IMG/VR virus record: IMGVR_UViG_3300035210_000151
Source: a virus
Lineage: Duplodnaviria > Heunggongvirae > Uroviricota > Caudoviricetes
DNA: 64,000 bases
Reading direction: 5' to 3' (one strand)
The position numbers and the translations under genes are program-made. How positions within the stretch are numbered: the first letter of the stretch is position 1; the number at the start of each line of letters is the position of its first letter. The notes below the pieces were generated by a model. It was not told the origin of the DNA, ran no database searches, and saw only the letters and a program-made list of their open reading frames with translations. This document shows positions 3,759-54,168 of the stretch, piece after piece.

Positions 3759-3787
3759 CACAGTCGAGTGTGTAACTGGCGAAAGCC

Positions 3788-18559: not shown

Positions 18560-18626
18560 GTGTTGATTTACAAAGTGAATACTGTTATAATTACCACATT
18601 AACTAATAAACAATAGGAGATTTAAT

Positions 18627-18827: not shown

Positions 18828-18838
18828 GGGGAAATGTT

Positions 18839-19066: not shown

Positions 19067-19068
19067 GT

Positions 19069-20014: not shown

Positions 20015-20081
20015 ATAATGATGTTAAAGGCTGTTGGAATATGGTATAATTGTTATTATTAATTAGAAAGGAAATACATAA

Positions 20082-20702
20082 TTGGACATAACAGAAGTAA
20101 TTGTGAATGGCATTGAGCCTAGTGCTTACTTTTTGAGAAATAACCCTGAATGGCGACATGTCAATCAGGGGATTTGCTTTAATGTGTTTGAAGATATTGG
20201 GACTAATCATATTTTTAAAGTTCAATCACTTAGTTGTGGCAGTGAGCAAATTAAAGAAATTAAATATTGGACACGCTATTGTCTTGACCATCAACATTTT
20301 AATTACCTTCCTCAATTAAACTCCTGTAAACTTTATAAATTCGATAAAAAATCCTTGTTCTGCATTGACTCTGAAAAGCTTGTTGATGTGGGTGTTGAAT
20401 TAATTGCTGAAATTAAATCTATTTTTGATGGCTATATTGCTAAGGCATTCATCGAATTGAGCGATCATGATATTTCTATTATTTTAGATCGAATTTATCA
20501 ATCTACTCACTTTTGCAAGCGTATTGGTACAGACTTTGAAGATTTTTTTGTGACATTGCTTAAAGATTTGCGTAAAATTGCTCGCCAACAAGGTGATACC
20601 ATCTTTAGTTTGGATCTCCATTTTAATAATTTTATGATTAGGCCAAGCACTGGACAACTGGTGATTGTGGATGCTTTTAGCTGCTCAATGTATAATGAAT
20701 AA
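20082..20702 (+). CDS. Second kinase-like paralog
   Basis: IFKV, LPQLNS, DLHFNNFM, VIVDAF; degenerate Gly loop (NQGICF); TTG start with AAGGA RBS. Confidence 0.65.
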   Translation: MDITEVIVNGIEPSAYFLRNNPEWRHVNQGICFNVFEDIGTNHIFKVQSLSCGSEQIKEIKYWTRYCLDHQHFNYLPQLNSCKLYKFDKKSLFCIDSEKLVDVGVELIAEIKSIFDGYIAKAFIELSDHDISIILDRIYQSTHFCKRIGTDFEDFFVTLLKDLRKIARQQGDTIFSLDLHFNNFMIRPSTGQLVIVDAFSCSMYNE

Positions 20703-23727: not shown

Positions 23728-23801
23728 TCAATTGGCTTCTGCCAGTTTTTTATTCTTTTTAAACTTATGATATAATAATATAAGAACAAGGAAATTTACG
23801 G

Positions 23802-32615: not shown

Positions 32616-32687
32616 TATTGATTGAAGAATGTCTTCGGAGTTCTTCACAATAAACTAAACTAAATCTGCCGAATGGGGGTATTAAAA

Positions 32688-34592
32688 ATGAGTAAAGTAA
32701 TTGGTATTGACTTGGGTACAACAAATTCTTGTGTATCTATATTTGAAAATGGTAAACAAAAAGTAATTGAGAACGCAGAAGGAGCAAGAACTACTCCATC
32801 TATCGTCTCTTATAGCAAAGAAGGTGAAACTTTGGTTGGGCAACCAGCAAAAAGACAATCTATCACCAACCCAACACAAACGTTCCACGCCATCAAACGA
32901 CTTATTGGTCGTAAATTTGATGAAGAGGCTGTACAAAAAGACATCAAGCTTGTCCCTTACAAAATTGTAAAGGCTGACAATGGTGATGCATGGGTAGAAG
33001 TTAAAGGTAAGAAGACTTCACCACAACAAATCTCAGCCGAAATTTTGATGAAAATGAAGAAAACTGCAGAAGACTACTTGGGTGAACCAGTAACAGAAGC
33101 TGTTATTACTGTGCCTGCTTACTTCAATGATAGTCAAAGACAAGCCACAAAAGATGCGGGTCGTATCGCTGGTTTAGATGTTAAACGTATTATTAACGAA
33201 CCAACAGCGGCTGCATTAGCTTATGGCATGGATAAATTTAAGAAAGATAGCACTATCATAGTTTATGACTTGGGTGGTGGTACTTTTGACGTATCCGTTA
33301 TTGAGATTGCAGGTGTTGATGGGGAATCTCAGTTCGAAGTGCTTGCAACCAATGGTGATACTTTCCTTGGTGGTGAAGACTTTGACAACTTGCTCATTGA
33401 ATACATTGTAAGTGAGTTTAAGAAAGAAAGTGGTATTGATATTAAACAAGACCCACTCGCTATGCAACGTATCAGAGACGCTGCTGAGAAAGCTAAAATT
33501 GAGTTGTCTTCAACACAACAAACTGATGTTAACTTACCTTATGTGACTGCTGATAGTTCTGGACCTAAGCACTTGAACGTTATTATCACCAGATCTAAGT
33601 TTGAAGGTTTAGTTGAAGAGTTAGTGGAAAGAACTATTCTTCCATGCAAAACAGCTCTAAAAGATGCTGGTATTGAATTGTCAGCGATTGATGAAGTTAT
33701 CTTGGTTGGTGGTCAGACTCGTATGCCACTTGTGCAAAAACGTGTTGCCGAGTTTTTTGGCAAAGAACCACGTAAAGATGTAAACCCTGATGAAGCTGTG
33801 GCTATTGGTGCAGCCATTCAAGCAGGTGTTATCACAGGTGCTGTGACTGACGTATTGTTGTTAGACGTAACGCCATTGACGTTAGGTATTGAAACAATGG
33901 GTGGTGTATTTACTCCATTGATTCCTAAGAACACCACTATTCCAACGAAGAAGACAGAAATGTGTTCAACAGCGGATGACAATCAAACTGCAGTAACTAT
34001 TCATGTGTTGCAAGGTGAACGTAAACAAGCGTCTGGTAACAAATCGTTGGGTCGTTTTGACTTAAGAGACATTGCACCAGCACCAAAAGGTCAACCTCAA
34101 ATTGAGATTACTTTTGATATTGATGCTAACGGTATTTTGAATGTGTCTGCTAAGGACAAGAATACTGGTAAGTCTCAATCTGTTGTCATTAAAGCTAACT
34201 CTGGTTTGAGTGAAGCTGAGATTCAACAAATGATTAATGACGCTGAAAAGAACAAATCAGATGATGAGAAGTTTGCTGCATTAGCTGATAGCCGTAACAA
34301 GGCTGACCATTTGGTTCACGAAGCTCGTAAAGTGATGAATGAGCCAACCTTGGATAGCACTGATAGATTGAATCTTGAAAACGCTATTTCCGATTTAGCT
34401 GGTTTGATTAAATCTGGATCTAAGGCAGAACTTGATTCTCGCTATGCCAGCCTTGAAAAAGTGCTTCACGGTATTACTTCTAAGCAATATCAGCCTGATC
34501 AAGCTCAACAGGCACAACAGCAACAAGGTCAAAATCAAGGCACTAGCCAAGATAATGATTATATTGACGCTGAGTTTACAGAGCAAAAGTAA
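32688..34592 (+). CDS. dnaK: Hsp70 chaperone DnaK
   Basis: [37 protein letters not shown] linker, Q-rich tail ending DAEFTE. Confidence 0.97.
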
Positions 34593-39119: not shown

Positions 39120-39309
39120 CCTCTTCGTTTAATTTGCATTATTGTATCATCTTTTTCACCATTTTGGAATATCTTTTTTCACTTTTACTGTTTTTATAAG
39201 AAAATAAAACAAAATGTATTGATAGATTGTTGAAATATATTTATTAAACGCTATTTTTTAAATTTTTAAAACTGCTAAGATGGTAGTACAAACAATTAAA
39301 GATAATCAT

Positions 39310-40251
39310 ATGAAAAAAAGTATATTGACATTAATGATTGCTTCCACATTTGGTATTTCAATAGCTGATTATCGCATAGCTATGCCAATGGAAGTGCAAA
39401 ATGGTGGAGGATTACAAAATGGCAGCATTTCTTTTACGGGTGGTACACCACCTGTTGAAGAACCAGAAGTTCCTGTCACGCCACCAGCAGCTAAAGATGA
39501 ATGTATGCCATTAAATGTTGGTGTATATGTCTGGCGTGTGAACAAAAACACTGGTGCAGGAACTGTTATTTGGAATGGAACTACAGTTGGATCGATTGTA
39601 GCAGGTAGTTCTTCTCTTTCAGGGGCTAATGGAATTGTTTACACTCGAAATGAATCAAGTGCCGCTGTTCCGCAAGGCCCACAAAACTTACAATCTGGTG
39701 TATGTAGAAATATACCCGGAAACTTCAACGGTGGTTCATGGGTCAGCATTGCTCCTGTTGTGACGGCATGGACAAACTCAGGATCAGCCTATAATTGCAC
39801 ATGGACACCTGATTCAAACAATTATCTACCAAGTCAGTCAGTAGACCAAACAGGTATTAATTGTAAACAAAAACAGGTAAGCACATCACAAGCAAGAGAG
39901 CAGAACGATTCGACATTAGATATTAGAAATGTTGGTTCACCTACTAATCTAAATAGAGATATTGATAGCGATGAAAACCCGACAAGAACAATTGCAGGTA
40001 CAGATATGACCACAGCACCAGAAACTTGTGGCTATGATAGATTAAGTGGTTGGTATTGGGCTGTTAGTATTACTGAAAACCAAACATCTTATGTTTCATG
40101 GAAAGGCACACAAGTGTTCGATTATCAAAATTCTCCACAAGTTGGTAATGCAACACAAATTACTGTTGCTGGCATAACATATAAGCGATCTACATTCCAA
40201 GATGGTGATTCAAACACCAGTAACTATGCACTTTGTCGTGTCAATAAATAA
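39310..40251 (+). CDS. Exported Cys-containing modular beta protein, paralog 1
   Basis: Signal peptide, Pro linker, two copies of C..Y.W.V...W.G...G..Y.R...VCR module. Confidence 0.8.
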   Translation: MKKSILTLMIASTFGISIADYRIAMPMEVQNGGGLQNGSISFTGGTPPVEEPEVPVTPPAAKDECMPLNVGVYVWRVNKNTGAGTVIWNGTTVGSIVAGSSSLSGANGIVYTRNESSAAVPQGPQNLQSGVCRNIPGNFNGGSWVSIAPVVTAWTNSGSAYNCTWTPDSNNYLPSQSVDQTGINCKQKQVSTSQAREQNDSTLDIRNVGSPTNLNRDIDSDENPTRTIAGTDMTTAPETCGYDRLSGWYWAVSITENQTSYVSWKGTQVFDYQNSPQVGNATQITVAGITYKRSTFQDGDSNTSNYALCRVNK

Positions 40252-40449
40252 TAACAATTATAGTTTAAAAACTTAACTTCGGTTAAGTTTTTTTATTAAA
40301 AAAATAACTAATTCTAATAAATTTATAATTTATATTTATGATTTTTTTTAAAACAAAATAATCATATAAAAATATTTATAATAATATATTTGATTATTAA
40401 AAAAAAATGATACTATAATGATATACAAACAATTAAAAGATGTATCAAA

Positions 40450-41436
40450 ATGAAAAAAAATATAATAACACTATTGATAGCATCTACCTTTGGTATTTCT
40501 GCTGCCGATTATAAAATAGAAATACCTATGGAAGTTTCAAATGGTGGAGCACTTCAAAATGGAAGTATTTCTTTCAAAACCAATACTGTGGTGACACCAC
40601 CAGTTGTAACACCACCTGTCACACCTCCCGTGACTCCACCAATAGTTCCACCACCAGAAGCAATTGATGAGTGTATGCCATTAACGATTGGTTCTTATGT
40701 TTGGCGTGTGAATAAAAATACAGGAGCTGGTTCTGTTATTTGGAATGGCAATACAGTAGGAACGATTGCAGCCGGTGCATCTTCTATGTCAGGAGCCAAT
40801 GGCATTGTGTATACTAGAAATACATCAAGTGCAGCAGTTCCTCAAGGCCCACAAAATTTACAATCTGGTGTATGTAGAAATATACCAGCAGACTTCAATG
40901 GTGGTGCATGGATCAGTATTGCTCCTACCCTTTCTGCTTGGGTTGATAAAGGTGCCGCTTATAATTGTACATGGACGCCTGATCCTAGTGGTTTTTTTAC
41001 AACACAAAGCGTTGAGCAACATGGCTCAGATTGTAGTCAAGATCAAGAAAGGACTTCACAAACAAGAGAACAAAACGATTCTACTTTTGCTATTCGAAAT
41101 GTAGGCACAGCCTCAATACTAACTCAGACCATTCCAAGTCAGGCTTATCCATCGAGAACAGTTTCAGGTACTGAAATTGCTTCATCAGGCGAAACTTGTA
41201 TTAATGAGGCATATAGTTCAACTTCATGGAATGTTGATAAAACAAATAATGATAATGTTTATAATATTTCTTGGAAGGGTGGTAATATATCAATTAATGA
41301 AAACTTAGGTAGTATAACTACATTTACTTATCAAGGTGTTGTTTATAAAAGAGGTGCATTTCTTAATGACCTTGTAACAGGTGTAGAGGATACTGTGTAT
41401 GCCAAAAGTTATGGCGTTTGTCGCGTAGTTAATTAA
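40450..41436 (+). CDS. Exported Cys-containing modular beta protein, paralog 2
   Basis: Near-identical first module to paralog 1, divergent last module. Confidence 0.8.
   Translation: MKKNIITLLIASTFGISAADYKIEIPMEVSNGGALQNGSISFKTNTVVTPPVVTPPVTPPVTPPIVPPPEAIDECMPLTIGSYVWRVNKNTGAGSVIWNGNTVGTIAAGASSMSGANGIVYTRNTSSAAVPQGPQNLQSGVCRNIPADFNGGAWISIAPTLSAWVDKGAAYNCTWTPDPSGFFTTQSVEQHGSDCSQDQERTSQTREQNDSTFAIRNVGTASILTQTIPSQAYPSRTVSGTEIASSGETCINEAYSSTSWNVDKTNNDNVYNISWKGGNISINENLGSITTFTYQGVVYKRGAFLNDLVTGVEDTVYAKSYGVCRVVN
40588..40656 (+). repeat. Coding (V)TPP tandem repeat, Pro-rich linker
   Basis: Encodes VVTPPVVTPPVTPPVTPPIVPPP. Confidence 0.8.
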
Positions 41437-41619
41437 ATTAAAAAACTTTAAAAAGGCTTAACTTCTGTTAAGTTTTTTTTATTTTAATAGATATAATTAT
41501 TTATATTTTTAAAATCCGACAAACGTTCATTAAATAGTCTTATTTATTATTGGTTGTCTATATATTATTTTCAAAAATATGCTAATATTTTAATATTAAC
41601 TAACTCATTTGAGACAACT

Positions 41620-42024
41620 ATGAAAAAAATAGCTTTGATAATAATCACCACAAGTTTTTTTTCTTTAACGCAAGCTGAATATATTTTAACATCTCCACTT
41701 ACTGGACCAAAAGGTATTATGGATGATAGCTCTATTATTATGAGAGCAGCCCCTATTGAAACCGTTCCAGATGCCGCCCCTGTTGCAGATACTTGCGAGT
41801 ATGATCGTTTAAACGGCCTTTACTGGATGGTTGTTACTAATGAGGGGCCAAGACAAGTCGCTCATGTAAGTTGGAATGGAACAACGCTTTATGATTATAA
41901 TGATCAAGCCCATATCAATGATGCTACAGAAGTGACCTTTAATGGCATTACCTATAAGCGTGGTGAACAGAAAATGGTTGATTACTATTCTGTGACTTAT
42001 GGCGTTTGTCGTGTCAACAGTTAA
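41620..42024 (+). CDS. Exported single-module protein, paralog 3
   Basis: Signal peptide plus one module resembling the last module of paralog 1 (TCEYDRLNGLYW vs TCGYDRLSGWYW). Confidence 0.8.
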   Translation: MKKIALIIITTSFFSLTQAEYILTSPLTGPKGIMDDSSIIMRAAPIETVPDAAPVADTCEYDRLNGLYWMVVTNEGPRQVAHVSWNGTTLYDYNDQAHINDATEVTFNGITYKRGEQKMVDYYSVTYGVCRVNS

Positions 42025-42146
42025 GTTCTAGATAATAACAAAAGACCTAACATCTGTTGGGTCTTTTTTTGTCTTGAATTATATTATTTTATTGGTTTTT
42101 ATACATAAATTATGCTATAATATCAGCATTAAATTGAGGTTAATAA

Positions 42147-43097
42147 GTGATTATGCTTACGATTGAAGAAATTAAAAATTACTTAAATATGCCAGAACTC
42201 CCTATTGCCCATACTAATAGTGAGCGGAATTTTTATGTTAAAAAAATATATGATGATTATTATTGTTCAAATCACGATCAATCTATCATTATTCGAGCCT
42301 TTGACGATTTTGAACCCATTAGTGTTTCAACGTCTCGCTATTTTACTGTATACCTTAATGATGTTGTCATTTTGACGTATGCGGGCGATCACTCTTATAA
42401 TTCAGATGTCTTCAAGATTTTTGATGGATTACCCTTTATGACATTAATACCAGAACATTTTGATTTTTTCGTTAATGAAGTCAATACAAAAGGTCAAGAT
42501 TGCATTGTATATTTTGATCGAATGTCTGAAAAATCTATTGACTATGAAGGTGATCAAAATATCTCCATTCTTTATGTATCGTTGAAGGAAAAAAAATATA
42601 AGGATAAATCTTTTTACAAAATTGTGAAGGGTGAACTGTTGCACTCGTATGGCTTTTACACCAATCAATATTTTGGCAATAATGAATATAAGAAATATTT
42701 TAATAAAATAGCTTATCTGAAACAATATTATCAGTTATACACACTTATGATTTATCAATCTATTGATGCTCAGAACGTTCGCTTTCTACTCAATAATTAT
42801 GATTTTGAAATCATACTGAACAATTCAGCAAATAATACTCAATTGTTTACTGAACCTAACCATTCGGTAGCTTATCAATATGAAAAAAATAAACGTCACT
42901 CTGCTATTTCTGTTGACACCACAGGTGCTACTGATTGTATTGAAGCGTTGATGGATCAATTGATTAATATTTTATTCAAAGAATACCCATGTGCTGAATT
43001 CTCCCAGTTTTTGTCAGAAGCAGGGCGTTATCATTCATCGTTGACGGATCACGAATTTGATGACTATATCCAATTATTCAGGATGAGCACTATCTAA
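42147..43097 (+). CDS. Hypothetical protein, tag LFRMSTI
   Basis: GAGG RBS, TGCTATAAT promoter. Confidence 0.75.
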   Translation: MIMLTIEEIKNYLNMPELPIAHTNSERNFYVKKIYDDYYCSNHDQSIIIRAFDDFEPISVSTSRYFTVYLNDVVILTYAGDHSYNSDVFKIFDGLPFMTLIPEHFDFFVNEVNTKGQDCIVYFDRMSEKSIDYEGDQNISILYVSLKEKKYKDKSFYKIVKGELLHSYGFYTNQYFGNNEYKKYFNKIAYLKQYYQLYTLMIYQSIDAQNVRFLLNNYDFEIILNNSANNTQLFTEPNHSVAYQYEKNKRHSAISVDTTGATDCIEALMDQLINILFKEYPCAEFSQFLSEAGRYHSSLTDHEFDDYIQLFRMSTI

Positions 43098-43124
43098 TGG
43101 TTCTCATACATTAATTGAAGGCGT

Positions 43125-43303
43125 AAAAAAAGACCTAACATCACTGATAGGTCTTTAAGTTTAAGGGAAGCGATCAGGTATATCAGCCAATAGAGTTAGA
43201 AGGAACCGTGATCATAGCCTTGAATAAGTAGATATGGAAAGCGAATAGGTAAATCGTCATTTAAAAGAATGTTTAGAAGGAACCTGCTTCATAGCCTTAT
43301 CTA
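43125..43303 (-). ncRNA. Putative structured ncRNA A, tandem dimer of stem-loop units
   Basis: TTGACT (43332-37) and TG-extended TAATAT (43310-15) promoter; two AAGGCUAUGA-N4-GGUUCCUUCUAA motifs (43273-98, 43196-221); terminator AGACCUA/UAGGUCU plus U-run at 43125-54. Confidence 0.7.
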
Positions 43304-43413
43304 AGTACAATATTAGCATATTATTTTTAAAAGTCAATACTTTTGTTTGTTTTTTCTTTTAAATTATGCTAAAATTATTTTTATTAAAAAAACTTAATTG
43401 AAGGATTACTATT

Positions 43414-43809
43414 TTGAGCGACTACGAAGAATTTGATAAGAGAGCAGTCTTAAATAATATTATGATTGTTGACCAATTGTTTAAAGCTAATGGAGCCATC
43501 CATAAAATTTGCTTTGATATGCAACGTGATTATGAGACTAATCGTGAAGATGGCTATAATGGTTTTAGTTTTAGCCTAGATCCTGATATTTATAATTTTC
43601 ATCTTTATGCAAATGATTTCACATTAAGTGTTGATCATAATAGTGTTTTTTGTTTTTATGGAGGATTTGGTGTTCAATTTAAGCCATCACCGTCATCAAC
43701 AATAGAGCAATTTAAACAGTTACTGCTTATTGTGATTAATATGAATTCAGAACAAAAATTTGATAATATTGAGCAGTTCATTGACCTGCATAACATGATA
43801 TACATCTAA
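43414..43809 (+). CDS. Hypothetical protein, tag LHNMIYI
   Basis: TTG start with GAAGGA RBS. Confidence 0.7.
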   Translation: MSDYEEFDKRAVLNNIMIVDQLFKANGAIHKICFDMQRDYETNREDGYNGFSFSLDPDIYNFHLYANDFTLSVDHNSVFCFYGGFGVQFKPSPSSTIEQFKQLLLIVINMNSEQKFDNIEQFIDLHNMIYI

Positions 43810-43826
43810 CGCATTAAGGTGATTAT

Positions 43827-44597
43827 ATGCTTTTAACAAATGCTTCACGTTTACTGGAAGTTTATTTTCACATTAGCGATTTGGCTAAATTTGAGATTGA
43901 TACGACATTCGCCAGTGAATTACTCTCACCCAGCGAAAAACGTTTTTTAATGGACGCTGTTCGTGCATTAGCAAACGACATATTATCAGTTTCAGAAGAC
44001 TTTAAAACCAGTATTAATTTTTATATCCGTCAATCAGGTTGCTTGATTGAGATGGATTCTTCTTATCCGTTTTTAATCCAATCATCTTTTAATTTTGAAC
44101 TGTATGAACCTTTAATTAAACATAAGTCGCTTGATCAGTATGTGAACGATTTAATTTATCAAAATGATAGATATCGAACCTATGGAAGTTATTTGACTCT
44201 TGTTGATTTTAGATCTTTCTTTGAAAATATTAGATTTATTGATAACTTATTTGAATTTGATGGCAAATTTTATTCGTTTTATCAAGACATTGATTTTACA
44301 TTAGGGGCACGAGAAGTTAAATTTGATTCTTTTAATTCTTTTGTACATTGTGGTGAAAACCCTCTGTTAAAAATTCAATTTGGGGATCTTCTGGTCACCA
44401 TCTCACCTGATGAATTTTCTTTTGCTATTATGGGTGGTTCCGCTATTTTGACCATATCTAAGCAAAGCAGACGGAGTTATCAACAGAAAAAAGATAACTT
44501 AGCAACACTTATTATAGATATGTATAATATGGAGTTAATGACAGAAGCTGACACCATGAAAAATTTATTACTATTGATTAGAATGAAGGCTATTTAG
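43827..44597 (+). CDS. Tandem family member 1 (YPF-domain), tag LIRMKAI
   Basis: SDL...LANDIL...SYPF motif. Confidence 0.75.
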   Translation: MLLTNASRLLEVYFHISDLAKFEIDTTFASELLSPSEKRFLMDAVRALANDILSVSEDFKTSINFYIRQSGCLIEMDSSYPFLIQSSFNFELYEPLIKHKSLDQYVNDLIYQNDRYRTYGSYLTLVDFRSFFENIRFIDNLFEFDGKFYSFYQDIDFTLGAREVKFDSFNSFVHCGENPLLKIQFGDLLVTISPDEFSFAIMGGSAILTISKQSRRSYQQKKDNLATLIIDMYNMELMTEADTMKNLLLLIRMKAI

Positions 44598-44627
44598 TCT
44601 TCATTTTTTTGTTGCTTTATTCTAGGC

Positions 44628-44813
44628 AAAAAAAAACCTGTATCGCTACAAGTTTGTTTTATTTGAGGGAATTGACAAGGTTTAATCAGTTTAATATTTA
44701 CAAGTTAAGTTAGAAGGAACCTTAATGCTAGCCTCGGTGAAATAGTTGGTATGGAAATCGAAATGGTGAATCTTAGAATGAGTTAGAAGGAACCAACTTC
44801 ATAGCCTTACCGT
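44628..44813 (-). ncRNA. Putative structured ncRNA B, paralog of A
   Basis: TTGACT (44843-48)-17-TACTAT promoter; motifs at 44783-808 and 44710-735; terminator AAACUUGUA/UACAGGUUU plus U-run. Confidence 0.7.
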
Positions 44814-44910
44814 TTGTATATAGTATGATATTCGGACTAAAAAGTCAAGCGTTTTTTTCTTGATTTAATGATTTTAAACTGTTAAAGTGTTTACATAATG
44901 GAGATGTTCG

Positions 44911-45753
44911 ATGTTTGATGAAAATCTGCCATATCAGTTAAAAACTGGTAGGCAATTAATAAAGTTGTCTGATTTAAAAAATGCTGAACTCATTGGTGTT
45001 CAGGATGAACACAATTTAAAAATTTCTCGTTTTTTAACGATTCTTGCTGATGATATTTTGTGTATGCGTGATGATGTGAAAACTTATGCTTTTATAGAAA
45101 TTGTTGATGATGTATTTTCTATATGTCTAGACTATTCTTATCCTTTTTTGGAGTTTTTAAACAGCACTCACCCTATTAAGATAAATAAATCATTAAATAG
45201 AGTTTATTTTCGTTTAAATCTAAATCTATCAATAGATTTAATCACTCCCACATTGTTGGCGATATTCCTTGATGAATTAAAAGCTGATGGTTGGTATAAG
45301 TTTAATGATGATGATGAGCGAGAGTCGGAAACTGGTTTGATGGAACAGTTTATTCACATCAATGCATTGGATACTTTTTATGTATTTGATATCATCGATC
45401 AGTCATTGGGCTATGATGGAAAACTGTCCAAACTGGTTAAAAATAATATTTACTATGTAATGCCATTCTCAGAAGAAGATGAGTTCTCAATGTTTGAATT
45501 TAGAAACTTTAATTCAAGTAATATTGAGTTGACACTCACTAACCATGATTTCTACATTAAAGTTATCAATAACACAATTAGATTTGAATATTTATATGAT
45601 TCGATGGAGTTTAATTTAAATAAAAAACATCCAGTTGCCTTTAATATTAAAAAATTTACTAAATTCTTTTTAAGTTTTTACAATATTCAACACGACACGG
45701 ACCATGATGATTTACCACGCTGGATTAAACTTCAGGAAATGATAGCCATATAA
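44911..45753 (+). CDS. Tandem family member 2, tag LQEMIAI
   Basis: LSDL...LADDIL...SYPF; II..SLGYDG.L motif. Confidence 0.8.
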   Translation: MFDENLPYQLKTGRQLIKLSDLKNAELIGVQDEHNLKISRFLTILADDILCMRDDVKTYAFIEIVDDVFSICLDYSYPFLEFLNSTHPIKINKSLNRVYFRLNLNLSIDLITPTLLAIFLDELKADGWYKFNDDDERESETGLMEQFIHINALDTFYVFDIIDQSLGYDGKLSKLVKNNIYYVMPFSEEDEFSMFEFRNFNSSNIELTLTNHDFYIKVINNTIRFEYLYDSMEFNLNKKHPVAFNIKKFTKFFLSFYNIQHDTDHDDLPRWIKLQEMIAI

Positions 45754-45855
45754 CTTATATTATTTTTCCAATTAATTTTATGATTTCATTGAAAATGAAG
45801 TATATTTAATGGTTTTAATATGTTATAATAATCTATTATTTTAGAGGCTCTGCAC

Positions 45856-46695
45856 ATGGCTAAATCAAAAAAAGATGACGAACTTATTATTCTTTCCAAT
45901 CATGATAACCATACTGTTATGTTAACCGACTTGCGTCGAGTAAACATTGAAGGAATCAGCAAGCAAAAAAATAATAGAATGTTAGCCTACTTTGACCTTC
46001 TTGTTGACGATCTTTTAATTTACAATGGCGATTTTGAGTTGGATGTCGAAATTTCGATGAGTGCTGATGACATGTTTATGAGTGTCATGTTAGAGAAATC
46101 ATATCCTTATTATGATGATTGTATTTTTCTTTGTTTTGATCTAAAAGAAAAAGCAAGTATTCAGAATTTAGCAAGAGCACTTTCTAATCTTGACACTGAT
46201 GATCGGGAACATTGGGATGACAAAGATGATATTGTGAAATACATTGACTGTAGTTTTGGTTATGAGCATGAATTGATGTTGAGTGATTATCCACCTATGT
46301 TTATTGAGTATGGTTGTGGGCTGATGCGTAATGTTCGCCTCGTTGATAAAGCACTCTATTTTGACAATCAACTGGTTAAAACTTTTCGTAATAATAACAT
46401 AACAACAAGTAATGATATACGCATTGATTCATCATCCTTTACATTCACGATGCAGGGAACAAAAGAACCTGACATCTTTGTGAATTCCGCTTACCTTGAT
46501 ATTAGAATTGAAAATGATGGTGTGAAGTTTACGTTTGATAAGGATAATACATTTACTTTTACCACAACGACTAATTTTGAACGTGATTTTAATATGTTAC
46601 AGATGTTTATTAAAATGTTTATTGAAAAAAAGAAAGATCACGATATTCATGATTTGAAAAGTGAACTTTTGTTGATTGAGATGGAAAATATTTGA
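45856..46695 (+). CDS. Tandem family member 3, tag LIEMENI
   Basis: LTDL...LVDDLL...SYPY. Confidence 0.8.
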   Translation: MAKSKKDDELIILSNHDNHTVMLTDLRRVNIEGISKQKNNRMLAYFDLLVDDLLIYNGDFELDVEISMSADDMFMSVMLEKSYPYYDDCIFLCFDLKEKASIQNLARALSNLDTDDREHWDDKDDIVKYIDCSFGYEHELMLSDYPPMFIEYGCGLMRNVRLVDKALYFDNQLVKTFRNNNITTSNDIRIDSSSFTFTMQGTKEPDIFVNSAYLDIRIENDGVKFTFDKDNTFTFTTTTNFERDFNMLQMFIKMFIEKKKDHDIHDLKSELLLIEMENI

Positions 46696-46696
46696 T

Positions 46697-47752
46697 ATGA
46701 ATAAATATAAATATTTACTTAATGCCGATAATTTTTACATGTGTTCCATGACAGACTTAAAAACAACCACATTTAAAAAATTAAAAGATGAACATAAACG
46801 AACATTGTTAAATCGGTATTTAAGCCTGTTAGTTGATGATGCTTTATCTAATAATAAACCGGACTTCAAAATAGAAATTCGGATGGATATCAATGATGAT
46901 ATTGTCGATATAAGCATTGGAACCGCTTATCCGTTTATAGGACAATTTGATTTGTCTCAACCATTTAACAAGTCTTGTGTACTGGATTATTTGAATAATA
47001 CTAATTTAGTACTGAGTGACAATGGGACAGAAGGTACCTTAAATGAATTTAGGAAAACGCAAGTATTGTTTACTACTGCATCATTTAATAAAAAGCTATC
47101 TGAATATTTATCATTTATTGCAGATGATGTTTTCCCTTTTGTTGAAGATAATAAAATTTATTATAGTATTAAAGCTCATGAAACAAGTTTTGACTTGCTG
47201 TTGGGCCATGCTTATCCTTTTTTTGAGACAAATGTTCTTCGTTTTAAAATTGATTTGGAGCAAGATTTCAATAGTCTTTTGATAGTTGAACAATTGAATG
47301 TTTATGCTCAAGAGCAATTAAAAGATCCAAAAACTAACTTTTTTGTTTTAATTAAAGATGGTTTACAATTTTTAGAAACTATTAAGATTTTAGAAAATGT
47401 TTTAGGGTTTGGCAATCAATTAACAAGTCTTTACTATAATAATTCTATTTTAAAACCTATTAATGAAATTTCATTTCTTTCTATTGAGCATCAAAAACGT
47501 CAATTATCTTTAGAAATGGTGTCTAAGGGTGAACTTGCTCTAGATATTCATATTAGCCAATCTAATCTTGCTTTTCTTTTTGGTAAAAGAGATGGCACAT
47601 CTGAGAATTTTACATGGCTACGTACTGAATGTATGGATCATGATACATTAATGGTTCATCAATTTTTTATTATTTATCTTGAAAAATGGCTTGGGCATAA
47701 GATTACAGATTTAGCAAGGGAAATAAAATTACTTGAAATGGAGGCTATTTAA
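46697..47752 (+). CDS. Tandem family member 4 (two N-domain copies), tag LLEMEAI
   Basis: Two LVDD/IADD...AYPF repeats. Confidence 0.8.
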   Translation: MNKYKYLLNADNFYMCSMTDLKTTTFKKLKDEHKRTLLNRYLSLLVDDALSNNKPDFKIEIRMDINDDIVDISIGTAYPFIGQFDLSQPFNKSCVLDYLNNTNLVLSDNGTEGTLNEFRKTQVLFTTASFNKKLSEYLSFIADDVFPFVEDNKIYYSIKAHETSFDLLLGHAYPFFETNVLRFKIDLEQDFNSLLIVEQLNVYAQEQLKDPKTNFFVLIKDGLQFLETIKILENVLGFGNQLTSLYYNNSILKPINEISFLSIEHQKRQLSLEMVSKGELALDIHISQSNLAFLFGKRDGTSENFTWLRTECMDHDTLMVHQFFIIYLEKWLGHKITDLAREIKLLEMEAI

Positions 47753-48780
47753 TGCCAGATAAGTATATTTTAAGTGGAGCTAAGGTTAATGGACTAATCT
47801 CAGAATTAAAAAATTTGAAATTTTGTGATGACATTAACAATTACAACGAAGCAATTCGAAGATATATAAATCTTCTGGTGGATTCAGCTCTTTTACAGGT
47901 AAAAGATGTCAAAATTCAGTATTGTATTACGATTAATTTTAATATAATGACTATCCATTTATGTGATAAATTCCCATTCATGGCAACTTTCGATCTTGAC
48001 GCTCCATTCAATGAAAATAATGTATTAGAACATCTTAATAACGAAAATCTCGTAATGAATAATGCCCGATATTTATGTGATATAGATGAATTAAGATATC
48101 AAAAAGTTTTATTTGTTGGCACTGAGGACAATAAGAAAATATCAGCATATTTAAGTATGATTGTTGATGACATATTGGTTTTTGGTGAACACTTTGAAAC
48201 TGAGTTTAGTCTTAGCGTTAATAATAATATGTTTACTATTGAAATGACAAAATCATATCCCTTTGTTGGTTCTTATATTGAACTTAAGTTCGATTTAAAC
48301 GAGCCAGTTGATATTAATAACATATCAAGTCAATTGGATGAACTTAGAAAACATCATATTTATCTTGAACGTGTTAATTATTATGTAAGCTTAGATGTTG
48401 GCAAAAAGTTTTTAAACCGTATTGATATTATTGAAAAAGCTCTGGGTTATGATGGCAGATTAAAGGATGTTTATCTTAATCGTTCAATTTACAAGACGAA
48501 AGAAAAATTTTCTTTCTTTGATTTTGAAGTCAAAAATAGGAGTTTCTTAGAACTAACACTTCACTCATCAGAAACAGACATGACTATTGAAATTGAGTCT
48601 AATTATATTTTCATTGGATTTAGTGATTATGATAGATTCTCTTGGACATTTACAGATGATGAGGCATCTGATGTTTCTATTATTCGAAAAATGTTTATAA
48701 TTTACCTTGAAAAGAAATTGGATAAAAAAATAGTAGACTTGAAAAGAGAAATACAACTAATTGAAATGGAGCATATTTAA
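47752..48780 (+). CDS. Tandem family member 5 (two N-domain copies), tag LIEMEHI
   Basis: TAATG overlap; LVDS...KFPF and IVDD...SYPF. Confidence 0.8.
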   Translation: MPDKYILSGAKVNGLISELKNLKFCDDINNYNEAIRRYINLLVDSALLQVKDVKIQYCITINFNIMTIHLCDKFPFMATFDLDAPFNENNVLEHLNNENLVMNNARYLCDIDELRYQKVLFVGTEDNKKISAYLSMIVDDILVFGEHFETEFSLSVNNNMFTIEMTKSYPFVGSYIELKFDLNEPVDINNISSQLDELRKHHIYLERVNYYVSLDVGKKFLNRIDIIEKALGYDGRLKDVYLNRSIYKTKEKFSFFDFEVKNRSFLELTLHSSETDMTIEIESNYIFIGFSDYDRFSWTFTDDEASDVSIIRKMFIIYLEKKLDKKIVDLKREIQLIEMEHI

Positions 48781-49541
48781 TGGTAGAAAATTCTAATAAA
48801 AAAATAGAAATTGAAAGTGCTCGAAGTTATGAGTTAAACCTTAGTGAGTTAAAATATATCTCCATTATTAAAGGTAATCATACTTCTTTTGACCATTTGC
48901 AAATGATTCAATATATTAATATGATTGTTGATGATGTTATGGTTTATGGGGAGGATTTCAAAGTTATATTTAATGTATCTATTACAGAGCATATACTTGA
49001 TTTTGAATTTAAATCTCTTTATCCCTTCATTAACGGTCTAGTCATGTTTAGTATAGATCTTCGGGAAGATGTTAATTTTCAACGTATTGCTAGAACACTG
49101 GATCATCTGATTGATATTAATATCAGGCATGGTCAGCGGATTAATTATACAGATCTAAGTCATCATACGATGTTTAGTAACATTAATATCGTTGATCAAG
49201 CCTTATTTTATGAGGGTAAATTAAAAGAAGTGTTTTCTAAGCGTTCACTTTTTGAAGAAAGTGTTAAATTTTCCTTCTTTGACTTAAATTTTTTGAATAA
49301 TGGGGCGACGAGAATTCAACTTCTTTCTCTCAGTGCTGGTGTATCTATTTGGATTGATATTAATAAGGTTTCATTTAGCTTTGATAGCAAAGATTCATCT
49401 ATTTGGTGTTTTACTGATGATGCTTCATTTGATATGTTATCAATACGTCAATTATTTGTACTCTACCTTGGCAAAAAATTGAATAAACCCATTATAGACG
49501 TTCGAAGAGAAATCCAATTGATTGAAATGCAAACTATTTAG
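48780..49541 (+). CDS. Tandem family member 6, tag LIEMQTI
   Basis: TAATG overlap; IVDD...LYPF. Confidence 0.8.
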   Translation: MVENSNKKIEIESARSYELNLSELKYISIIKGNHTSFDHLQMIQYINMIVDDVMVYGEDFKVIFNVSITEHILDFEFKSLYPFINGLVMFSIDLREDVNFQRIARTLDHLIDINIRHGQRINYTDLSHHTMFSNINIVDQALFYEGKLKEVFSKRSLFEESVKFSFFDLNFLNNGATRIQLLSLSAGVSIWIDINKVSFSFDSKDSSIWCFTDDASFDMLSIRQLFVLYLGKKLNKPIIDVRREIQLIEMQTI

Positions 49542-51616: not shown

Positions 51617-54013
51617 TCACTTTAGCAGTGAGTTGATTTCAATTTTTTCGTAACTGTTTTCTGTATTCCTACTGGTAAATACATAAGCACTATCAGTCGT
51701 AATCGCTACATCTGTATCGTCGTTCAATATCGGGGTTTCACCGACTTTAACACTTTCAAACAAATCAAACACTGACGGCAATGTGTTCAAATACTCAACA
51801 AATGCTGGCATTCTCTCAGACAGCAAAGTGCCGTTGGTTTCGGCGGAATGCACATGACCATACAAGTTAGCATCCATGTAAACTACTTTCCTTTCAACCA
51901 AGTCGAGGTAAGCCACATACTTGGTCAAATTCTTACCTTTTACTTCAAAGACAAATTGAGCACGGCTTGGTTCGTAAAGATTACCTTCCTCAGCGTTCTC
52001 ACCCATTTGCAATGTGCCCACTAAATCATCAGCCGCATCGAAAGGTTGGCTGTTGAATGACAAGATATTCCAAACAGCATAACGCACACCAGAATTAACC
52101 AGTTTGTCGATATACAAGTCAATCATCTGGCAACCACGACCTTGCGTATCTTGACTGATAACAGGGTCACCCGAGAAGACAGCACCAGCGTCTTGGGTTA
52201 AATAGGTATCTTGACCTGTATAAGAATAAGCAGCATTCCAGCAGCAAGCACCTTTTGAACCCCAATTTTCATCAAAGAAGTTCCAGCTATTATCAAACCA
52301 GATGTTACCCGAATCTTTCATCTGCCAGTAACTTGCACTTCGAATGAAATTGATATTTTCAGGCATATCAAATACGGTACCACGACCATAATTAGCCGCA
52401 AGGTTTTGATCATTGGTTTGAAGCTTAATCTTACTTGTAGCTTTATCCAGCATAACGCCTTTTGGAAAGAGAACTTCCATACGCTTAGCAATCTCTGTAT
52501 TGACAGCAGTTACGATAGTTTCTACAGCTTCTGCAGACAACATGACTTTGCCATTTTTAATAGGCTTATATATTTTTTTCTCAGGTGCTACATAACGTTG
52601 ATACATAGGCTTTGGTGAAGGAATAAACATAGGCTCAGGAGCAGGCTCAAGATTACCTTTGAACTTTTCAATCAACATCGCTAAGGCGTCACTGGATGGG
52701 ATTCCAGACTTAACTTCTGTAATAGCCGGTTGATCAACCTCAGTTTTTACGACTTCGACAATAACTGGTTCCATAACATCAACTGCTTTTACTTTTTGTT
52801 TCTTTTCTGCTTTCACAGGTGCTACGAATTCTTTTTCCACTGATGTGTCTTTTTCAACACGTTGAATAAAGTGGGCATTTGTCCAGTTACCTTTTGGGGC
52901 ATAGATAAAGTGCTGACGATCATTAATAGTGGTTACATACTTTTTCAACTTCAACAGTTGCAACGTATCAAATTGATCAATCTTAGCCACAATCGCATCC
53001 ACAGCTTTCTCACCAAACACTTCGTAAAGCTTGTGGAAACGACGCATCAAGTCACCTTGACGGTTTGAAAGCATATCAAACACTGTGTCATCTTTGGTCA
53101 ACACTTTGTTTTCAACCTTGGCGTTGAAGCTTTTAAGCTCACCATTGCACAAAGTGCCATAGACAGCCGTTACTTTCGGGAAGTTGTAATCTTTTGGGTG
53201 AAGCTGGAACATAAATTTCTTCCAGTCTTGTTGACGCATAGCCACATCATCAGCCAAGTTATTAGACTTATTTAACAAAGACAACAAAGCCTTACGTTCT
53301 TTACGAGAGAATTTTTTGAATTTTACTTTGGTGCGAAGTGAAACATCCGCATCGGACATTGCAGCAGCCAAACGCATGACATCGGTAGCGTCTTTAATAG
53401 TGAAATTAAGGCCGCTTTCAATCGCTTGCTTGATAATTACGATACCGTTCTCTTTGAAGCCGAAATCGCTCAAATTGATGGTTTCTTGATTGTTGTTAGT
53501 CACCAACTGGATTGCGAAATCCTTTTGTTGGTCATTCCAACGGTTTTTAGATTGAATAAGAGTTTCCTTGATGTTATTCAAGGTGTCTTCTTTTTCAAGG
53601 TGCAGCACTTTCAAGTTCTTTTGATCTTTGAGAGCTGGACGCTCTACTTTGTCATCAGCAAAATAGTCTGGACTAAACCCAACATACATCAAAATTTGGC
53701 AGAACCAGTATTCAGCTTCAGATTTATCAAGCACTTCTTTTGGGAAGTTTTTGTAAACAACAGCCGAATCCATATCACGATCAGAAGCAGTCACCTCTTT
53801 GAAAGCAGGTTCCACAGACAACCAGAAGGATTCTAGATCTTGTGCTGAATAGGTTTGAAGTTGTTCGATGACTTCTCTGGATGGAGTCCAGCCATAGTGA
53901 ACCATGTTGGCAAATACAGTAGACAGTTCTTCTTTGCTCGCAGGTGTGCTGGCAACAACGCGAGTTGCTTGCACAAAATTGTTTGCCAAAAGAATTGTGT
54001 TTGTATTTATCAT
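51617..54013 (-). CDS. Large helical N-domain plus TerD-like C-terminal domain protein
   Basis: VYKNFP..V, TDVMRLAAAMS.ADVSL, NRQGDLMRR; C-term GRGT...SYW...AVFSGD...QMIDL...YAVWNI.SF...PF...EP; AGGAG RBS before ATG 54013; TTGACT-17-TATTAT promoter. Confidence 0.65.
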   Translation of the reverse strand: MINTNTILLANNFVQATRVVASTPASKEELSTVFANMVHYGWTPSREVIEQLQTYSAQDLESFWLSVEPAFKEVTASDRDMDSAVVYKNFPKEVLDKSEAEYWFCQILMYVGFSPDYFADDKVERPALKDQKNLKVLHLEKEDTLNNIKETLIQSKNRWNDQQKDFAIQLVTNNNQETINLSDFGFKENGIVIIKQAIESGLNFTIKDATDVMRLAAAMSDADVSLRTKVKFKKFSRKERKALLSLLNKSNNLADDVAMRQQDWKKFMFQLHPKDYNFPKVTAVYGTLCNGELKSFNAKVENKVLTKDDTVFDMLSNRQGDLMRRFHKLYEVFGEKAVDAIVAKIDQFDTLQLLKLKKYVTTINDRQHFIYAPKGNWTNAHFIQRVEKDTSVEKEFVAPVKAEKKQKVKAVDVMEPVIVEVVKTEVDQPAITEVKSGIPSSDALAMLIEKFKGNLEPAPEPMFIPSPKPMYQRYVAPEKKIYKPIKNGKVMLSAEAVETIVTAVNTEIAKRMEVLFPKGVMLDKATSKIKLQTNDQNLAANYGRGTVFDMPENINFIRSASYWQMKDSGNIWFDNSWNFFDENWGSKGACCWNAAYSYTGQDTYLTQDAGAVFSGDPVISQDTQGRGCQMIDLYIDKLVNSGVRYAVWNILSFNSQPFDAADDLVGTLQMGENAEEGNLYEPSRAQFVFEVKGKNLTKYVAYLDLVERKVVYMDANLYGHVHSAETNGTLLSERMPAFVEYLNTLPSVFDLFESVKVGETPILNDDTDVAITTDSAYVFTSRNTENSYEKIEINSLLK

Positions 54014-54168
54014 GTTCAATATTTCTCCTAATTGATTTAATGTAACATCAAATAATACGCTCATAAAGCACTTAAGTCAAGCACCTTTATGCTTTTTTTT
54101 TTGATTTTTTGATAGCATATCTTCTTATATTATGATATCATTAGCCATCAATAATGTGGAGAGTATTT

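What the first reader, a model, noticed from the sequence alone, without database searches (positions are those of the whole stretch)
43125..44813. Two paralogous, independently transcribed ncRNAs, each a tandem dimer of a covarying stem-loop (candidate Y-RNA-like RNP component)
Seen: two gaps between + strand genes each carry a minus-strand TTGACT promoter, two copies of AAGGCUAUGA-N4-GGUUCCUUCUAA (period 77 and 73 nt; the copy at 44710-735 is more diverged) and an intrinsic terminator. The variable centre of each copy pairs with a segment about 33-40 nt downstream: GAAGCAGG/CCUAUUC (43283-302 with 43230-49), GAUCACGG/CCUGAUC (43206-24 with 43161-78), GAAGUUGG/CCAUUUC (44793-811 with 44748-66), UAAGG/CCUUG (44720-35 with 44665-80). 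Closing stems also covary (AGAUA/UAUCU in A, GGUA/UACC in B). The loop UUCCUUCUAA and a 3' UUUCC/UUCCC bulge stay nearly invariant. This is the signature of a structure-selected RNA repeated four times. Inference: a bulged protein-binding stem with a pyrimidine loop resembles the layout of bacterial Y RNAs that bind Ro60/TROVE. The helical+TerD protein at 51617-54013 is a candidate partner. I have an unverified recollection that its homologs lie next to similar AAGGCTAT...TTCCTTCTA...GCTTTCC elements. Alternatives: anti-Shine-Dalgarno sRNA (loop is complementary to AGAAGGAA), decoy for a host RNA-sensing defence, or 9-11 aa peptides (MKQVPS, MITVPS, MKLVPS; the fourth copy lacks ATG).
Basis: partly seen in the sequence, partly recalled or inferred. 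Interest (0 to 1): 0.9.

Follow-up and report, generated by a model that had tools for sequence, protein, structure and literature searches.

The report
Y-RNA-like small RNAs, huge phage
Two short minus-strand genes in this huge phage each encode a pair of folded RNA hairpins from a widespread, uncatalogued RNA family that almost always sits beside one ~700-residue protein with a Ro60-like ring, so they look like the RNA half of an undescribed cousin of the Ro60/Y-RNA particle.

Summary
Four copies of AGGCTA-N7-GGTTCCTTCTAA lie on the minus strand, none expected by chance. They form two promoter-to-terminator units of about 180 nt, each with two hairpins.

A covariance model built from them found 248 distinct relatives in phages and bacteria. 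Stems P1 and P2 covary strongly (95-97% of cells paired against 61-63% in shuffles). GGCUAU, CUUCCUUCU and UUUCC are nearly invariant. No Rfam 15 family matches, and I found no paper describing it.

The family is tied to one protein. Loci fetched by protein homology alone carried the RNA in 80 of 80 bacterial and 70 of 75 viral cases, and all 273 units lay on the gene's strand.

Its N-terminal domain most resembles Ro60 in two structure aligners. Its C-terminal domain is TerD rather than vWA. Pfam TROVE does not match.

Longer relatives elsewhere carry a YrlA-like tRNA-shaped insert. The window's units are the short hairpin type with a pyrimidine loop.

The micropeptide, DNA-site, anti-Shine-Dalgarno and toxin-antitoxin readings are disfavoured. 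Expression and binding are untested.

This scan has reported the same RNA-protein pair on other genomes at least eight times.

The parts
43310..43337 (-). Predicted sigma-70-type promoter of RNA-A (TTGACT, 16 nt, TGcTAATAT extended -10)
   Evidence: Sequence, consensus scan, coordinates. The same TTGACT box precedes RNA-B and the partner gene. Not tested by RNA data.
43230..43302 (-). Unit A1: hairpin RNA unit. P1 is AGAUAAGG/CCAUAUCU, the internal loop is CUAU/GCUUU, P2 has an internal mismatch, and the loop opens with UUCCUUCUAA.
   Evidence: CM R2 core hit 43236-43296, E 1.1e-5; pattern match; coordinates.
43162..43222 (-). Unit A2: hairpin RNA unit. P1 is AAGG/CCUU and P2 is GAUCA(C)GGU/ACCUGAUC.
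   Evidence: CM R2 hit 43152-43234, 68.9 bits, E 2.5e-13.
43125..43156 (-). Intrinsic terminator of RNA-A (9-bp stem followed by U7)
   Evidence: Sequence and MFE fold; coordinates.
44820..44848 (-). Predicted sigma-70-type promoter of RNA-B (TTGACT, 17 nt, TACTAT)
44748..44811 (-). Unit B1: hairpin RNA unit. P1 is GGUAAGG/CCAUACC and P2 is GAAGU(U)GGU/ACCAUUUC.
   Evidence: CM R2 hit 44740-44822, 53 bits, E 1.3e-9.
44664..44736 (-). Unit B2: the more diverged unit. P1 is GAGG/CCUC, there is no AUG, and the apical loop is longer.
   Evidence: CM R2 hit 44654-44739, 39.1 bits, E 2.2e-6.
44628..44655 (-). Intrinsic terminator of RNA-B (stem followed by U9)
51617..54013 (-). Partner protein gene (798 aa): Ro60-like alpha-helical N-domain, a low-complexity insert, and a C-terminal TerD beta-sandwich. 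The true start is ATG 54013 behind an AGGAG Shine-Dalgarno sequence. The longer ORF reaching 54064 starts inside the promoter.
   Evidence: BLASTP to the RNA-flanked 706-aa protein of L015, E 5e-42; phrog_33734 E 8.6e-149; NF041916 E 4e-46, below cutoff; fold searches run on the L015 homologue; start codon.
54052..54080 (-). Predicted promoter of the partner gene (TTGACT, 17 nt, TATTAT), the same type as the RNA promoters
   Evidence: Sequence.

Best explanation
RNA-A (about 43303 to 43126) and RNA-B (about 44813 to 44628) are stand-alone minus-strand genes for small non-coding RNAs. Each is made from a host-type promoter and ends at an intrinsic terminator. Each holds two hairpin units of a widespread RNA family with four parts: a closing stem P1 ending in GG/CC; a conserved internal loop (CUAU opposite N-UUU); a freely covarying 7-9 bp stem P2; and an apical loop that opens with the invariant UUCCUUCUA. 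These RNAs are most likely the RNA subunits of a ribonucleoprotein formed with the phage's 798-aa protein at 51617-54013, which has a Ro60-like helical ring capped by a TerD domain. By analogy with Ro60 and Y RNAs, the conserved 'handle' (P1, internal loop, P2 base and the pyrimidine stretch) would dock on the protein. The apical part would then gate the protein or link it to other factors such as host exoribonucleases, acting on structured RNAs (tRNA, rRNA) during infection. Shown here: the RNA structure, family membership and the strict gene linkage. Inferred: physical binding and the Ro60-like mode of action. Speculative: which RNAs or enzymes the particle acts on.
For: Structure. Among 46 distinct homologues, 95.3% of cells pair against 60.9% in shuffles, the covariation score is 0.852 against 0.184, and slid controls give about 0.09-0.10. 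Among 100 distinct bacterial homologues found through the protein, the figures are 97.2% against 63.1%, 0.832 against 0.152, and slid controls 0.12-0.16. Conserved nucleotides are GGCUAU, CUUCCUUCU, uAG and UUUCC at 90% or more.

Linkage. Loci fetched by protein homology alone carry the RNA in 70/75 viral contigs (170 units) and 80/80 bacterial contigs (103 units). All 273 units are on the gene's strand, directly upstream and/or downstream of it. Two of the five viral exceptions (L182, L183) have the units in tRNA arrays about 10 kb away. All three near-complete RNA-bearing phage genomes that were tested encode the protein.

A discrete RNA rather than only a leader. The window and L002 have their own promoter and terminator. 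Brevibacillus has a stand-alone unit ending in P1 plus U8. Units abut tRNA genes on the same strand in L024, L025 and L032.

Protein. The TerD fold has Foldseek probability 1.0. For the N-domain model (pLDDT 87), the top Foldseek PDB hit is phage phiLo Ro60. VIA-align ranks phiLo Ro60 first (Z 8.6, 245 aa) and D. radiodurans Rsr second (Z 7.7, 244 aa), with Xenopus Ro60 at rank 10 (267 aa). Nearly all other rows align only about 60-110 aa. Rsr has the highest probability in the AFDB Swiss-Prot search.

Y-RNA parallels. Long family members carry a permuted T-arm, hairpin and D-arm insert that the Rfam YrlA model hits at 32-38 bits. [quoted passage not shown] Phage phiLo has two Y-like RNA genes just upstream of its Ro60 gene (PMC12135203).
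Against: There is no expression or binding data for this window. Pfam TROVE matches none of 34 N-domains even at E<=1, and no PDB Ro60 sequence is hit by the profiles. The fold match is modest for a helical repeat protein, where Z below about 13 can arise by chance (note). The RNA lacks GNCGAAN0-1G (0 of 248 units) and the window's units have no tRNA-like module. In the window the RNA genes lie 7-10 kb from the protein gene rather than beside it. In bacterial chromosomes the unit always sits in the gene's 5' region, which also fits a purely regulatory leader.
Confidence: 0.7

Rival explanations
1. Cis-acting operator or leader. The hairpin is the site where the TerD-domain protein (or a ligand) binds its own mRNA leader to control termination or translation. 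Stand-alone copies such as those in this window would act as decoys that titrate the protein.
For: In 80/80 bacterial loci a unit lies 5' of the gene on the same strand. In several, P1 is followed by a U-run (L225, L251, L263, L247), or by a separate terminator-like hairpin (L257), or directly by the Shine-Dalgarno sequence (L226, L211). This is the layout of attenuators and translational operators.
Against: The window's protein gene has its own promoter and a short leader without a unit. The window's units are followed by terminators and then by convergent genes, with nothing to regulate in cis. Elsewhere, units also lie 3' of the gene (38 viral loci) and inside tRNA arrays, and long forms carry a tRNA-like module. 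A decoy role would still require binding to the protein, so this rival overlaps the main reading.
Confidence: 0.17
2. Trans-acting anti-Shine-Dalgarno sRNA. The loop UUCCUUCU pairs with AGAAGGAA-like ribosome-binding sites to repress host or phage mRNAs, independently of the TerD protein.
For: The loop is complementary to AAGGA/GAAGGA-type Shine-Dalgarno sequences, which this phage uses (for example upstream of 43414). In some loci the adjacent gene's SD (AAAGGAGA) could pair with the loop.
Against: The loop is invariant across phyla. That includes members of Bacteroidota (L253, L258, L273, L274, L276), a phylum that from general knowledge largely does not use Shine-Dalgarno pairing. This reading does not explain the equally conserved GGCUAU/UUUCC internal loop or the strict linkage to one protein.
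Confidence: 0.05
3. Type III toxin-antitoxin-like module. Tandem RNA repeats would neutralise a toxic protein, and the phage's extra stand-alone copies would serve as additional antitoxin.
For: The layout in many loci is promoter, tandem RNA repeats, terminator, then protein gene.
Against: The protein matches no PADLOC model, and none of the family or fold searches found a nuclease-like domain. Most chromosomal loci have a single unit rather than a repeat array. The RNA sequence is conserved across phyla, whereas type III antitoxin RNAs are, from general knowledge, fast-evolving and specific to their cognate toxin.
Confidence: 0.03
4. Translated micropeptides (MKQVPS..., MITVPS..., MKLVPS...) or DNA-level protein-binding repeats.
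For: Three of the four window units contain AUG followed by a 9-11 codon frame.
Against: Only 99 of 248 distinct family members have AUG at that position. AAGG lies only 2 nt before the AUG. GGUUCCUUCU shows no synonymous variation, while the flanking stems change by compensatory pairs. All 273 units share the strand of the partner gene, which a double-stranded DNA site would not require.
Confidence: 0.01

Closest known systems
Ro60 (Rsr) with bacterial and phage Y RNAs: YrlA (Rfam RF02553), and the hairpin-type YrlB/Yrn2 (Chen et al. 2014, PMC4201824; phage phiLo Ro60 with Yrl1/Yrl2, PMC12135203)
   Same: Small RNAs are encoded next to, and co-oriented with, a ring-shaped helical-repeat protein, often in several copies upstream of the gene. 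The RNA has a terminal stem with a conserved internal loop or bulge as the presumed protein handle. Two RNA types exist: a long form with a permuted tRNA-like module and a long hairpin with a pyrimidine-rich loop, which is the window's type. The pair occurs in both bacteria and large phages. The N-domain's best structural matches are Ro60 structures.
   Different: The protein has no detectable TROVE sequence signature and carries a TerD domain where Ro60 has vWA/MIDAS. The handle sequence is GGCUAU...CUUCCUUCU...UUUCC rather than GNCGAAN0-1G. The Rfam YrlA model hits only the tRNA-like insert of long forms, below threshold, and nothing in the window. Binding, PNPase tethering and the like have not been shown.
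Small stable RNAs in phage tRNA clusters (T4 species 1 and 2 RNAs, rnaC/rnaD; from my own knowledge)
   Same: In some relatives the units occupy slots between tRNA genes on the same strand, so they would be released by tRNA-processing enzymes.
   Different: The T4 RNAs have no known protein partner or shared motif. The window's RNAs have their own promoters and terminators and are not in a tRNA array.
Type III toxin-antitoxin RNA antitoxins (ToxI, CptI; from my own knowledge)
   Same: Tandem RNA repeats lie upstream of a protein gene with a terminator between them.
   Different: The protein here is a 700-800 aa helical-plus-TerD protein, not a small endoRNase. The RNA is conserved across phyla and is usually single-copy in chromosomes.

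Membership tests
TerD-protein-associated handle RNA family (defined here by covariance model R2) | P1 closing in GG/CC, internal loop CUAU opposite N-UUU, covarying P2, loop opening with (C/G)UUCCUUCUA; match to the covariance model | tested here: met
   All four window units match with filters off, at E 2.5e-13, 1.3e-9, 2.2e-6 and 1.1e-5. Caveat: R2 descends from a model seeded with these four units. The conserved columns hold in 218 other distinct sequences.
TerD-protein-associated handle RNA family (defined here by covariance model R2) | Encoded in the same genome as, and co-oriented with, the ~700-aa helical+TerD protein | tested here: met
   The protein gene lies at 51617-54013(-), the same strand as the RNAs and 7-10 kb away. 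Adjacency is looser than in most loci.
Y RNA, YrlA type (Rfam RF02553) | Match to the Rfam model at its gathering score | tested here: not met
   There is no hit in the window at gathering score or at E<=10. Long relatives elsewhere reach 32-38 bits against a gathering score of 69, and only over model positions 23-87.
Y RNA, YrlA type (Rfam RF02553) | Ro60-binding motif GNCGAAN0-1G near the 5' end (PMC4201824) | tested here: not met
   The motif is absent from RNA-A and RNA-B and from all 248 distinct family units.
Y RNA, YrlA type (Rfam RF02553) | tRNA-like module (T-arm and D-arm) | tested here: not met
   The window has no T-loop motif and ARAGORN finds nothing. The module is present in 11 long relatives elsewhere.
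Y RNA, hairpin type (YrlB/Yrn2) | [quoted passage not shown] | tested here: inconclusive
   The shape fits, with a hairpin and a loop beginning UUCCUUCU. However, the loop is 25-37 nt rather than small, and binding cannot be tested here.
Ro60/TROVE protein family (for the partner protein) | TROVE domain detectable by sequence (Pfam PF05731) | tested here: not met
   No Pfam hit for the window protein or its homologues. None among 34 N-domains at E<=1. No Ro60 chain among PDB sequence hits.
Ro60/TROVE protein family (for the partner protein) | HEAT-repeat ring fold | tested here: inconclusive
   Ro60 structures are the best and longest matches (Z 8.6, 7.7 and 6.7 over 244-267 aa; Foldseek top hit with probability 1.0 and TM 0.38; Rsr has the highest probability). 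These values lie within the range that helical repeats can reach by chance. The model is of the L015 homologue, not the window protein.
Ro60/TROVE protein family (for the partner protein) | C-terminal vWA domain with MIDAS | tested here: not met
   The C-terminal domain is a TerD beta-sandwich (3ibz, 2kxt, 2qz7; Foldseek probability 1.0).
Type III toxin-antitoxin | ToxN/AbiQ-like endoRNase toxin encoded after the RNA repeats | tested here: not met
   No PADLOC model matches, and the protein is helical plus TerD.
Riboswitch or cis-regulatory leader | A regulated gene lies downstream on the same strand | tested here: not met
   In the window each RNA ends at a terminator and faces the 3' end of a convergent gene. 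This feature is met in many bacterial loci.
tRNA | Cloverleaf recognised by ARAGORN or the Rfam tRNA model | tested here: not met

The most novel reading that the evidence does not exclude
A second lineage of Ro60/Y-RNA-type particles exists across many bacterial phyla and large phages. It has a ring protein capped by a Ca-binding TerD domain instead of vWA, with its own RNA handle (GGCUAU / CUUCCUUCU / UUUCC). Huge phages express extra stand-alone hairpin RNAs early in infection to load this particle. The particle then redirects host RNA decay or RNA quality control, or protects phage tRNAs.
Probability: 0.45. Interest if true: 0.85.

Novelty: new variant of a known kind. Interest (0 to 1): 0.75.

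Why it matters
Ro60 with its Y RNAs is a conserved RNA-surveillance particle, and its bacterial functions are only partly understood. A parallel RNA-protein pair would widen the known range of such particles. This pair occurs in Bacillota, cyanobacteria, Bacteroidota, Alphaproteobacteria, Saccharibacteria, Acidobacteriota and many 100-480 kb phages, and is absent from Rfam 15 and the literature I could search. It would also add a large new structured-RNA family. It may explain the function of a protein family with thousands of members that is currently named only 'TerD family' or 'hypothetical'. Tractable systems exist: Xanthomonas phage XacN1 (two units upstream of ORF396), Priestia megaterium, Brevibacillus and Paenibacillus.

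Tried and rejected
- My first collection scan used a mistyped spacer (N8 instead of N7) and found nothing. The corrected pattern worked.
- The looser pattern returned 119+ loci, but most single hits were chance matches without a CM hit.
- Rfam found nothing at gathering score. At E<=10 over the locus it gave only sub-threshold noise, for example a suhB/mmgR hit over the terminator. No family matched at the motif in L003 or in three bacterial loci.
- ARAGORN found no tRNA in the window.
- Megablast of 42000-46000 against plasmids and phages, and distant blastn of gap A against phages, gave no match.
- No whole genome is held for the window.
- Pfam and PHROGs found no family for any of the flanking ORFs searched. 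PADLOC found none for the protein.
- PDB sequence searches with protein profiles gave no meaningful hit.
- The ESM Atlas feature search returned only unnamed or 'TerD family' clusters.
- Single-sequence folding z-scores were not significant.
An alternative GG:CC contact cannot be excluded.
- Anticodon-loop mimicry (CUUCUAA resembles the tRNA-Arg UCU loop) and mimicry of the 16S 3' tail were both considered. No closing stem or exact match supports either.
- The look-up of encoding contigs has no record of two window proteins, so I could not walk out of the window.
- Literature searches for TerD with TROVE, Ro60, RNA motif, riboswitch, SCO0854 and the motif strings found no description.
- Complex prediction was not used, because it cannot take RNA.
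Full report
**What is in the window.** The window is AT-rich (about 31% GC). It has PHROG-type phage genes and many small paralogue arrays. Its nearest cultured relatives are the Xanthomonas jumbo phages XacN1 and Xoo-sp13, and only at the protein level. No whole genome is held for it.

Two gaps between + strand ORFs, 43098-43413 and 44598-44910, align at 77% identity. Read on the minus strand, each contains the following:
- a TTGACT box, a 16-17 nt spacer and a -10 box;
- two copies of AGGCUA-N7-GGUUCCUUCUAA, spaced 77 and 73 nt apart;
- a hairpin followed by U7-U9.

The 25-nt pattern occurs four times against zero in 100 shuffles.

**It is a structured RNA with many relatives.** Exact-pattern scans of IMG/VR found related loci. 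My first scan used a mistyped spacer and failed. A covariance model seeded with the four units (R1), then rebuilt from its 53 hits (R2), recovers all four window units with filters off and nothing else convincing in 64 kb.

Across 248 distinct units the consensus is as follows:
- P1, variable, closing in GG/CC;
- CUAU;
- P2, 7-9 bp with no sequence conservation, closed by C-G (G-C in the window) and U-A;
- UCCUUCUA, then a variable apical region of 10 to about 100 nt;
- the 3' strand of P2, then N-UUU and the 3' strand of P1.

Covariation is strong:

| Set | Cells paired | Shuffled | Covariation score | Shuffled | Slid controls |
|---|---|---|---|---|---|
| 46 distinct, mostly viral | 95.3% | 60.9% | 0.852 | 0.184 | about 0.09-0.10 |
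| 100 distinct, bacterial, reached only through the protein | 97.2% | 63.1% | 0.832 | 0.152 | 0.12-0.16 |

Both alignments were fitted to the model, which flatters these numbers. Even so, the many A-U, G-C, U-A and C-G exchanges at single pairs are unambiguous.

Rfam 15 has no family for the motif, and literature searches found none.

**Readings that fail.**
- Micropeptide: AUG at the GGCUAUG position is present in only 99 of 248 units. The invariant GGUUCCUUCU shows no synonymous change.
- DNA site: this cannot explain compensatory changes, or the fact that all units share one strand.
- tRNA: ARAGORN finds none.

**The partner protein.** In many loci the gene directly 3' of the units encodes a protein of about 700 aa. 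That protein is homologous over its full length to the window's ORF at 51617-54013(-) (E 5e-42). The true start is ATG 54013 behind AGGAG. The longer ORF begins inside the gene's own TTGACT-17-TATTAT promoter.

I tested the linkage without using the RNA to choose loci:
- Viral contigs: 75 loci fetched by protein homology held 170 units in 70 loci. All units were on the gene's strand, with 57 loci having units just upstream and 38 just downstream.
- Bacterial contigs: 80 loci held 103 units in 80 of 80 loci, again all on the gene's strand. These included Paenibacillus, Brevibacillus, Priestia, cyanobacteria, Bacteroidota, Alphaproteobacteria, Saccharibacteria and Acidobacteriota.
- Two of the five viral exceptions are contigs whose units sit in tRNA arrays about 10 kb away.
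- All three near-complete RNA-bearing phage genomes tested encode the protein.
- In a close relative of this phage (L002, 437 kb), the RNA dimers lie directly after the gene.

In bacterial chromosomes the gene is otherwise solitary. The conserved module is therefore the RNA plus this one protein.

**What the protein looks like.** Pfam finds nothing. NCBIfam NF041916, a RING-bearing cellular family, matches below its cutoff. Some sources name relatives 'TerD family protein'.

An AlphaFold model of the L015 homologue has a C-terminal TerD beta-sandwich (Foldseek probability 1.0 to 3ibz, 2kxt and 2qz7). A better model of the N-terminal 430 residues (34 sequences, pLDDT 87) gives these matches:
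- Foldseek PDB: the top hit is Ro60 of Thermus phage phiLo (probability 1.0, TM 0.38, 323 columns).
- VIA-align against 48,161 PDB representatives: phiLo Ro60 is first (Z 8.6, 245 aa) and D. radiodurans Rsr second (Z 7.7, 244 aa). Xenopus Ro60 is at rank 10 (Z 6.7, 267 aa). Nearly all other rows align only about 60-110 residues.
- AlphaFold DB Swiss-Prot: Rsr has the highest probability of any hit.

These scores are modest for helical repeats, so I take the Ro60-like ring as likely but not proven. The domain that follows is TerD, not vWA.

**Parallels with Y RNAs.** Long members of the RNA family (135-163 nt) carry a T-arm, a hairpin and a D-arm in permuted order inside the apical loop. The Rfam YrlA model hits exactly that insert, at 32-38 bits against a gathering score of 69, over model positions 23-87. 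It does not hit the stem.

Chen et al. (PMC4201824) report two points. [quoted passage not shown] Y RNA genes lie within about 2 kb of rsr. Phage phiLo has two Y-like RNA genes directly upstream of its Ro60 gene (PMC12135203).

The window's four units are the short hairpin type. They lack the Ro60-binding motif GNCGAAN0-1G, as do all 248 units. The family is therefore built like Y RNAs but is not a member of the YrlA family.

**A discrete RNA or a cis leader?** In bacterial chromosomes one unit always precedes the gene. It is sometimes followed by a U-run or a terminator-like hairpin, and sometimes directly by the Shine-Dalgarno sequence. Some cis regulation is plausible there.

Several facts argue that the unit is a stable RNA in its own right:
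- The window's units have their own promoters and terminators, and they face convergent genes.
- The protein gene's leader in the window has no unit.
- Brevibacillus has a stand-alone unit ending in P1 plus U8.
- Units abut tRNA genes on the same strand in L024, L025 and L032, where tRNA processing would release them.

**Mechanism, with its status.**
- Shown: the fold, family membership and gene linkage.
- Inferred: the conserved handle binds the Ro60-like/TerD protein, and the stand-alone dimers raise the supply of RNA subunits from host-type promoters.
- Speculative: the particle gates or tethers RNA-decay enzymes, or acts on tRNA or rRNA. Nearby RNA-end-repair genes fit an RNA-repair or surveillance setting but prove nothing. 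These are a PNKP-type phosphatase at 54960-56144 and a Thg1-like gene after the units in L052.

**Novelty and the scan's own record.** Earlier notes of this scan describe the same RNA-protein pair on at least eight other genomes and reach the same comparison. I found them only after my own Ro60 result. One note gave me the lead to look for tRNA-like long forms, which I then confirmed. Outside this scan I found no description. I rate it a new variant of a known kind, namely Ro60/Y-RNA-type particles. What is specific to this window is that the RNA genes are two stand-alone dimers placed 7-10 kb from the protein gene.

**Limits.** There is no binding test. The rest of this phage genome could not be reached.

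Noticed in passing
window 54013-54080: The longest ORF of the TerD-domain gene (start 54064) begins inside its own TTGACT-17-TATTAT promoter. The real start is ATG 54013 behind AGGAG, which gives 798 aa rather than 815 aa.
   Followed up: yes
L266:5138-5286, L270:5138-5285, L275:2498-2801, L218:4531-4693, L220:5256-5417, L144:19-156, L156:5721-5881: Long members of the RNA family carry a permuted T-arm, hairpin and D-arm (tRNA-like) insert in the apical loop. The Rfam YrlA model hits this insert below threshold. The window has only short forms.
   Followed up: yes
L024 195-2727, L025 1680-1921, L032 2191-2945: In some huge phages the units sit in tRNA arrays and directly abut tRNA genes on the same strand, as if occupying tRNA slots.
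   Followed up: partly
L277 (Xanthomonas phage XacN1, AP018399.1 288985-289386, minus strand): The cultured jumbo phage XacN1 has two unannotated units in the roughly 500-nt gap upstream of ORF396, the TerD-domain homologue annotated as a hypothetical protein. This makes it a tractable system.
   Followed up: partly
L247:2899-3000 (Brevibacillus formosus): The unit's P1 is followed by U6, and the start codon comes 8 nt later with no visible Shine-Dalgarno sequence. How this gene is translated is unclear.
   Followed up: no
L052:6999-7850: A Thg1-like tRNA-His guanylyltransferase gene (Pfam E 2.6e-28) directly follows three units downstream of the TerD-domain gene.
   Followed up: no
contig of L002 (G001), 18381-20570 and 191550-193841: A 437-kb relative of this phage encodes two paralogues of the TerD-domain protein. 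Only the second was seen next to RNA units.
   Followed up: no
window 43827-49541 and 39280-42024: The RNA loci are embedded in two tandem arrays of diverged paralogous ORFs (BLASTP E 1e-6 to 1e-118). None of these ORFs has a Pfam match, and those also searched in PHROGs have none there.
   Followed up: partly
window 32673-34592; 2424-5975; 12463-14555 and 22717-24806: The phage encodes a full-length Hsp70/DnaK (Pfam E 3.6e-253), a MoxR-like AAA ATPase beside a DUF2201 metallopeptidase/VWA protein, and four DEDDh-type exonuclease paralogues.
   Followed up: no
cellular relatives (NCBIfam NF041916): The phage and Bacillota proteins match the 'MXAN_6230/SCO0854 family RING domain-containing protein' model below its cutoff. 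The best-scoring stretch reported starts at model position 383-487, so the model may include an extra N-terminal RING domain. Whether proteins of that family also travel with the RNA was not tested.
   Followed up: no
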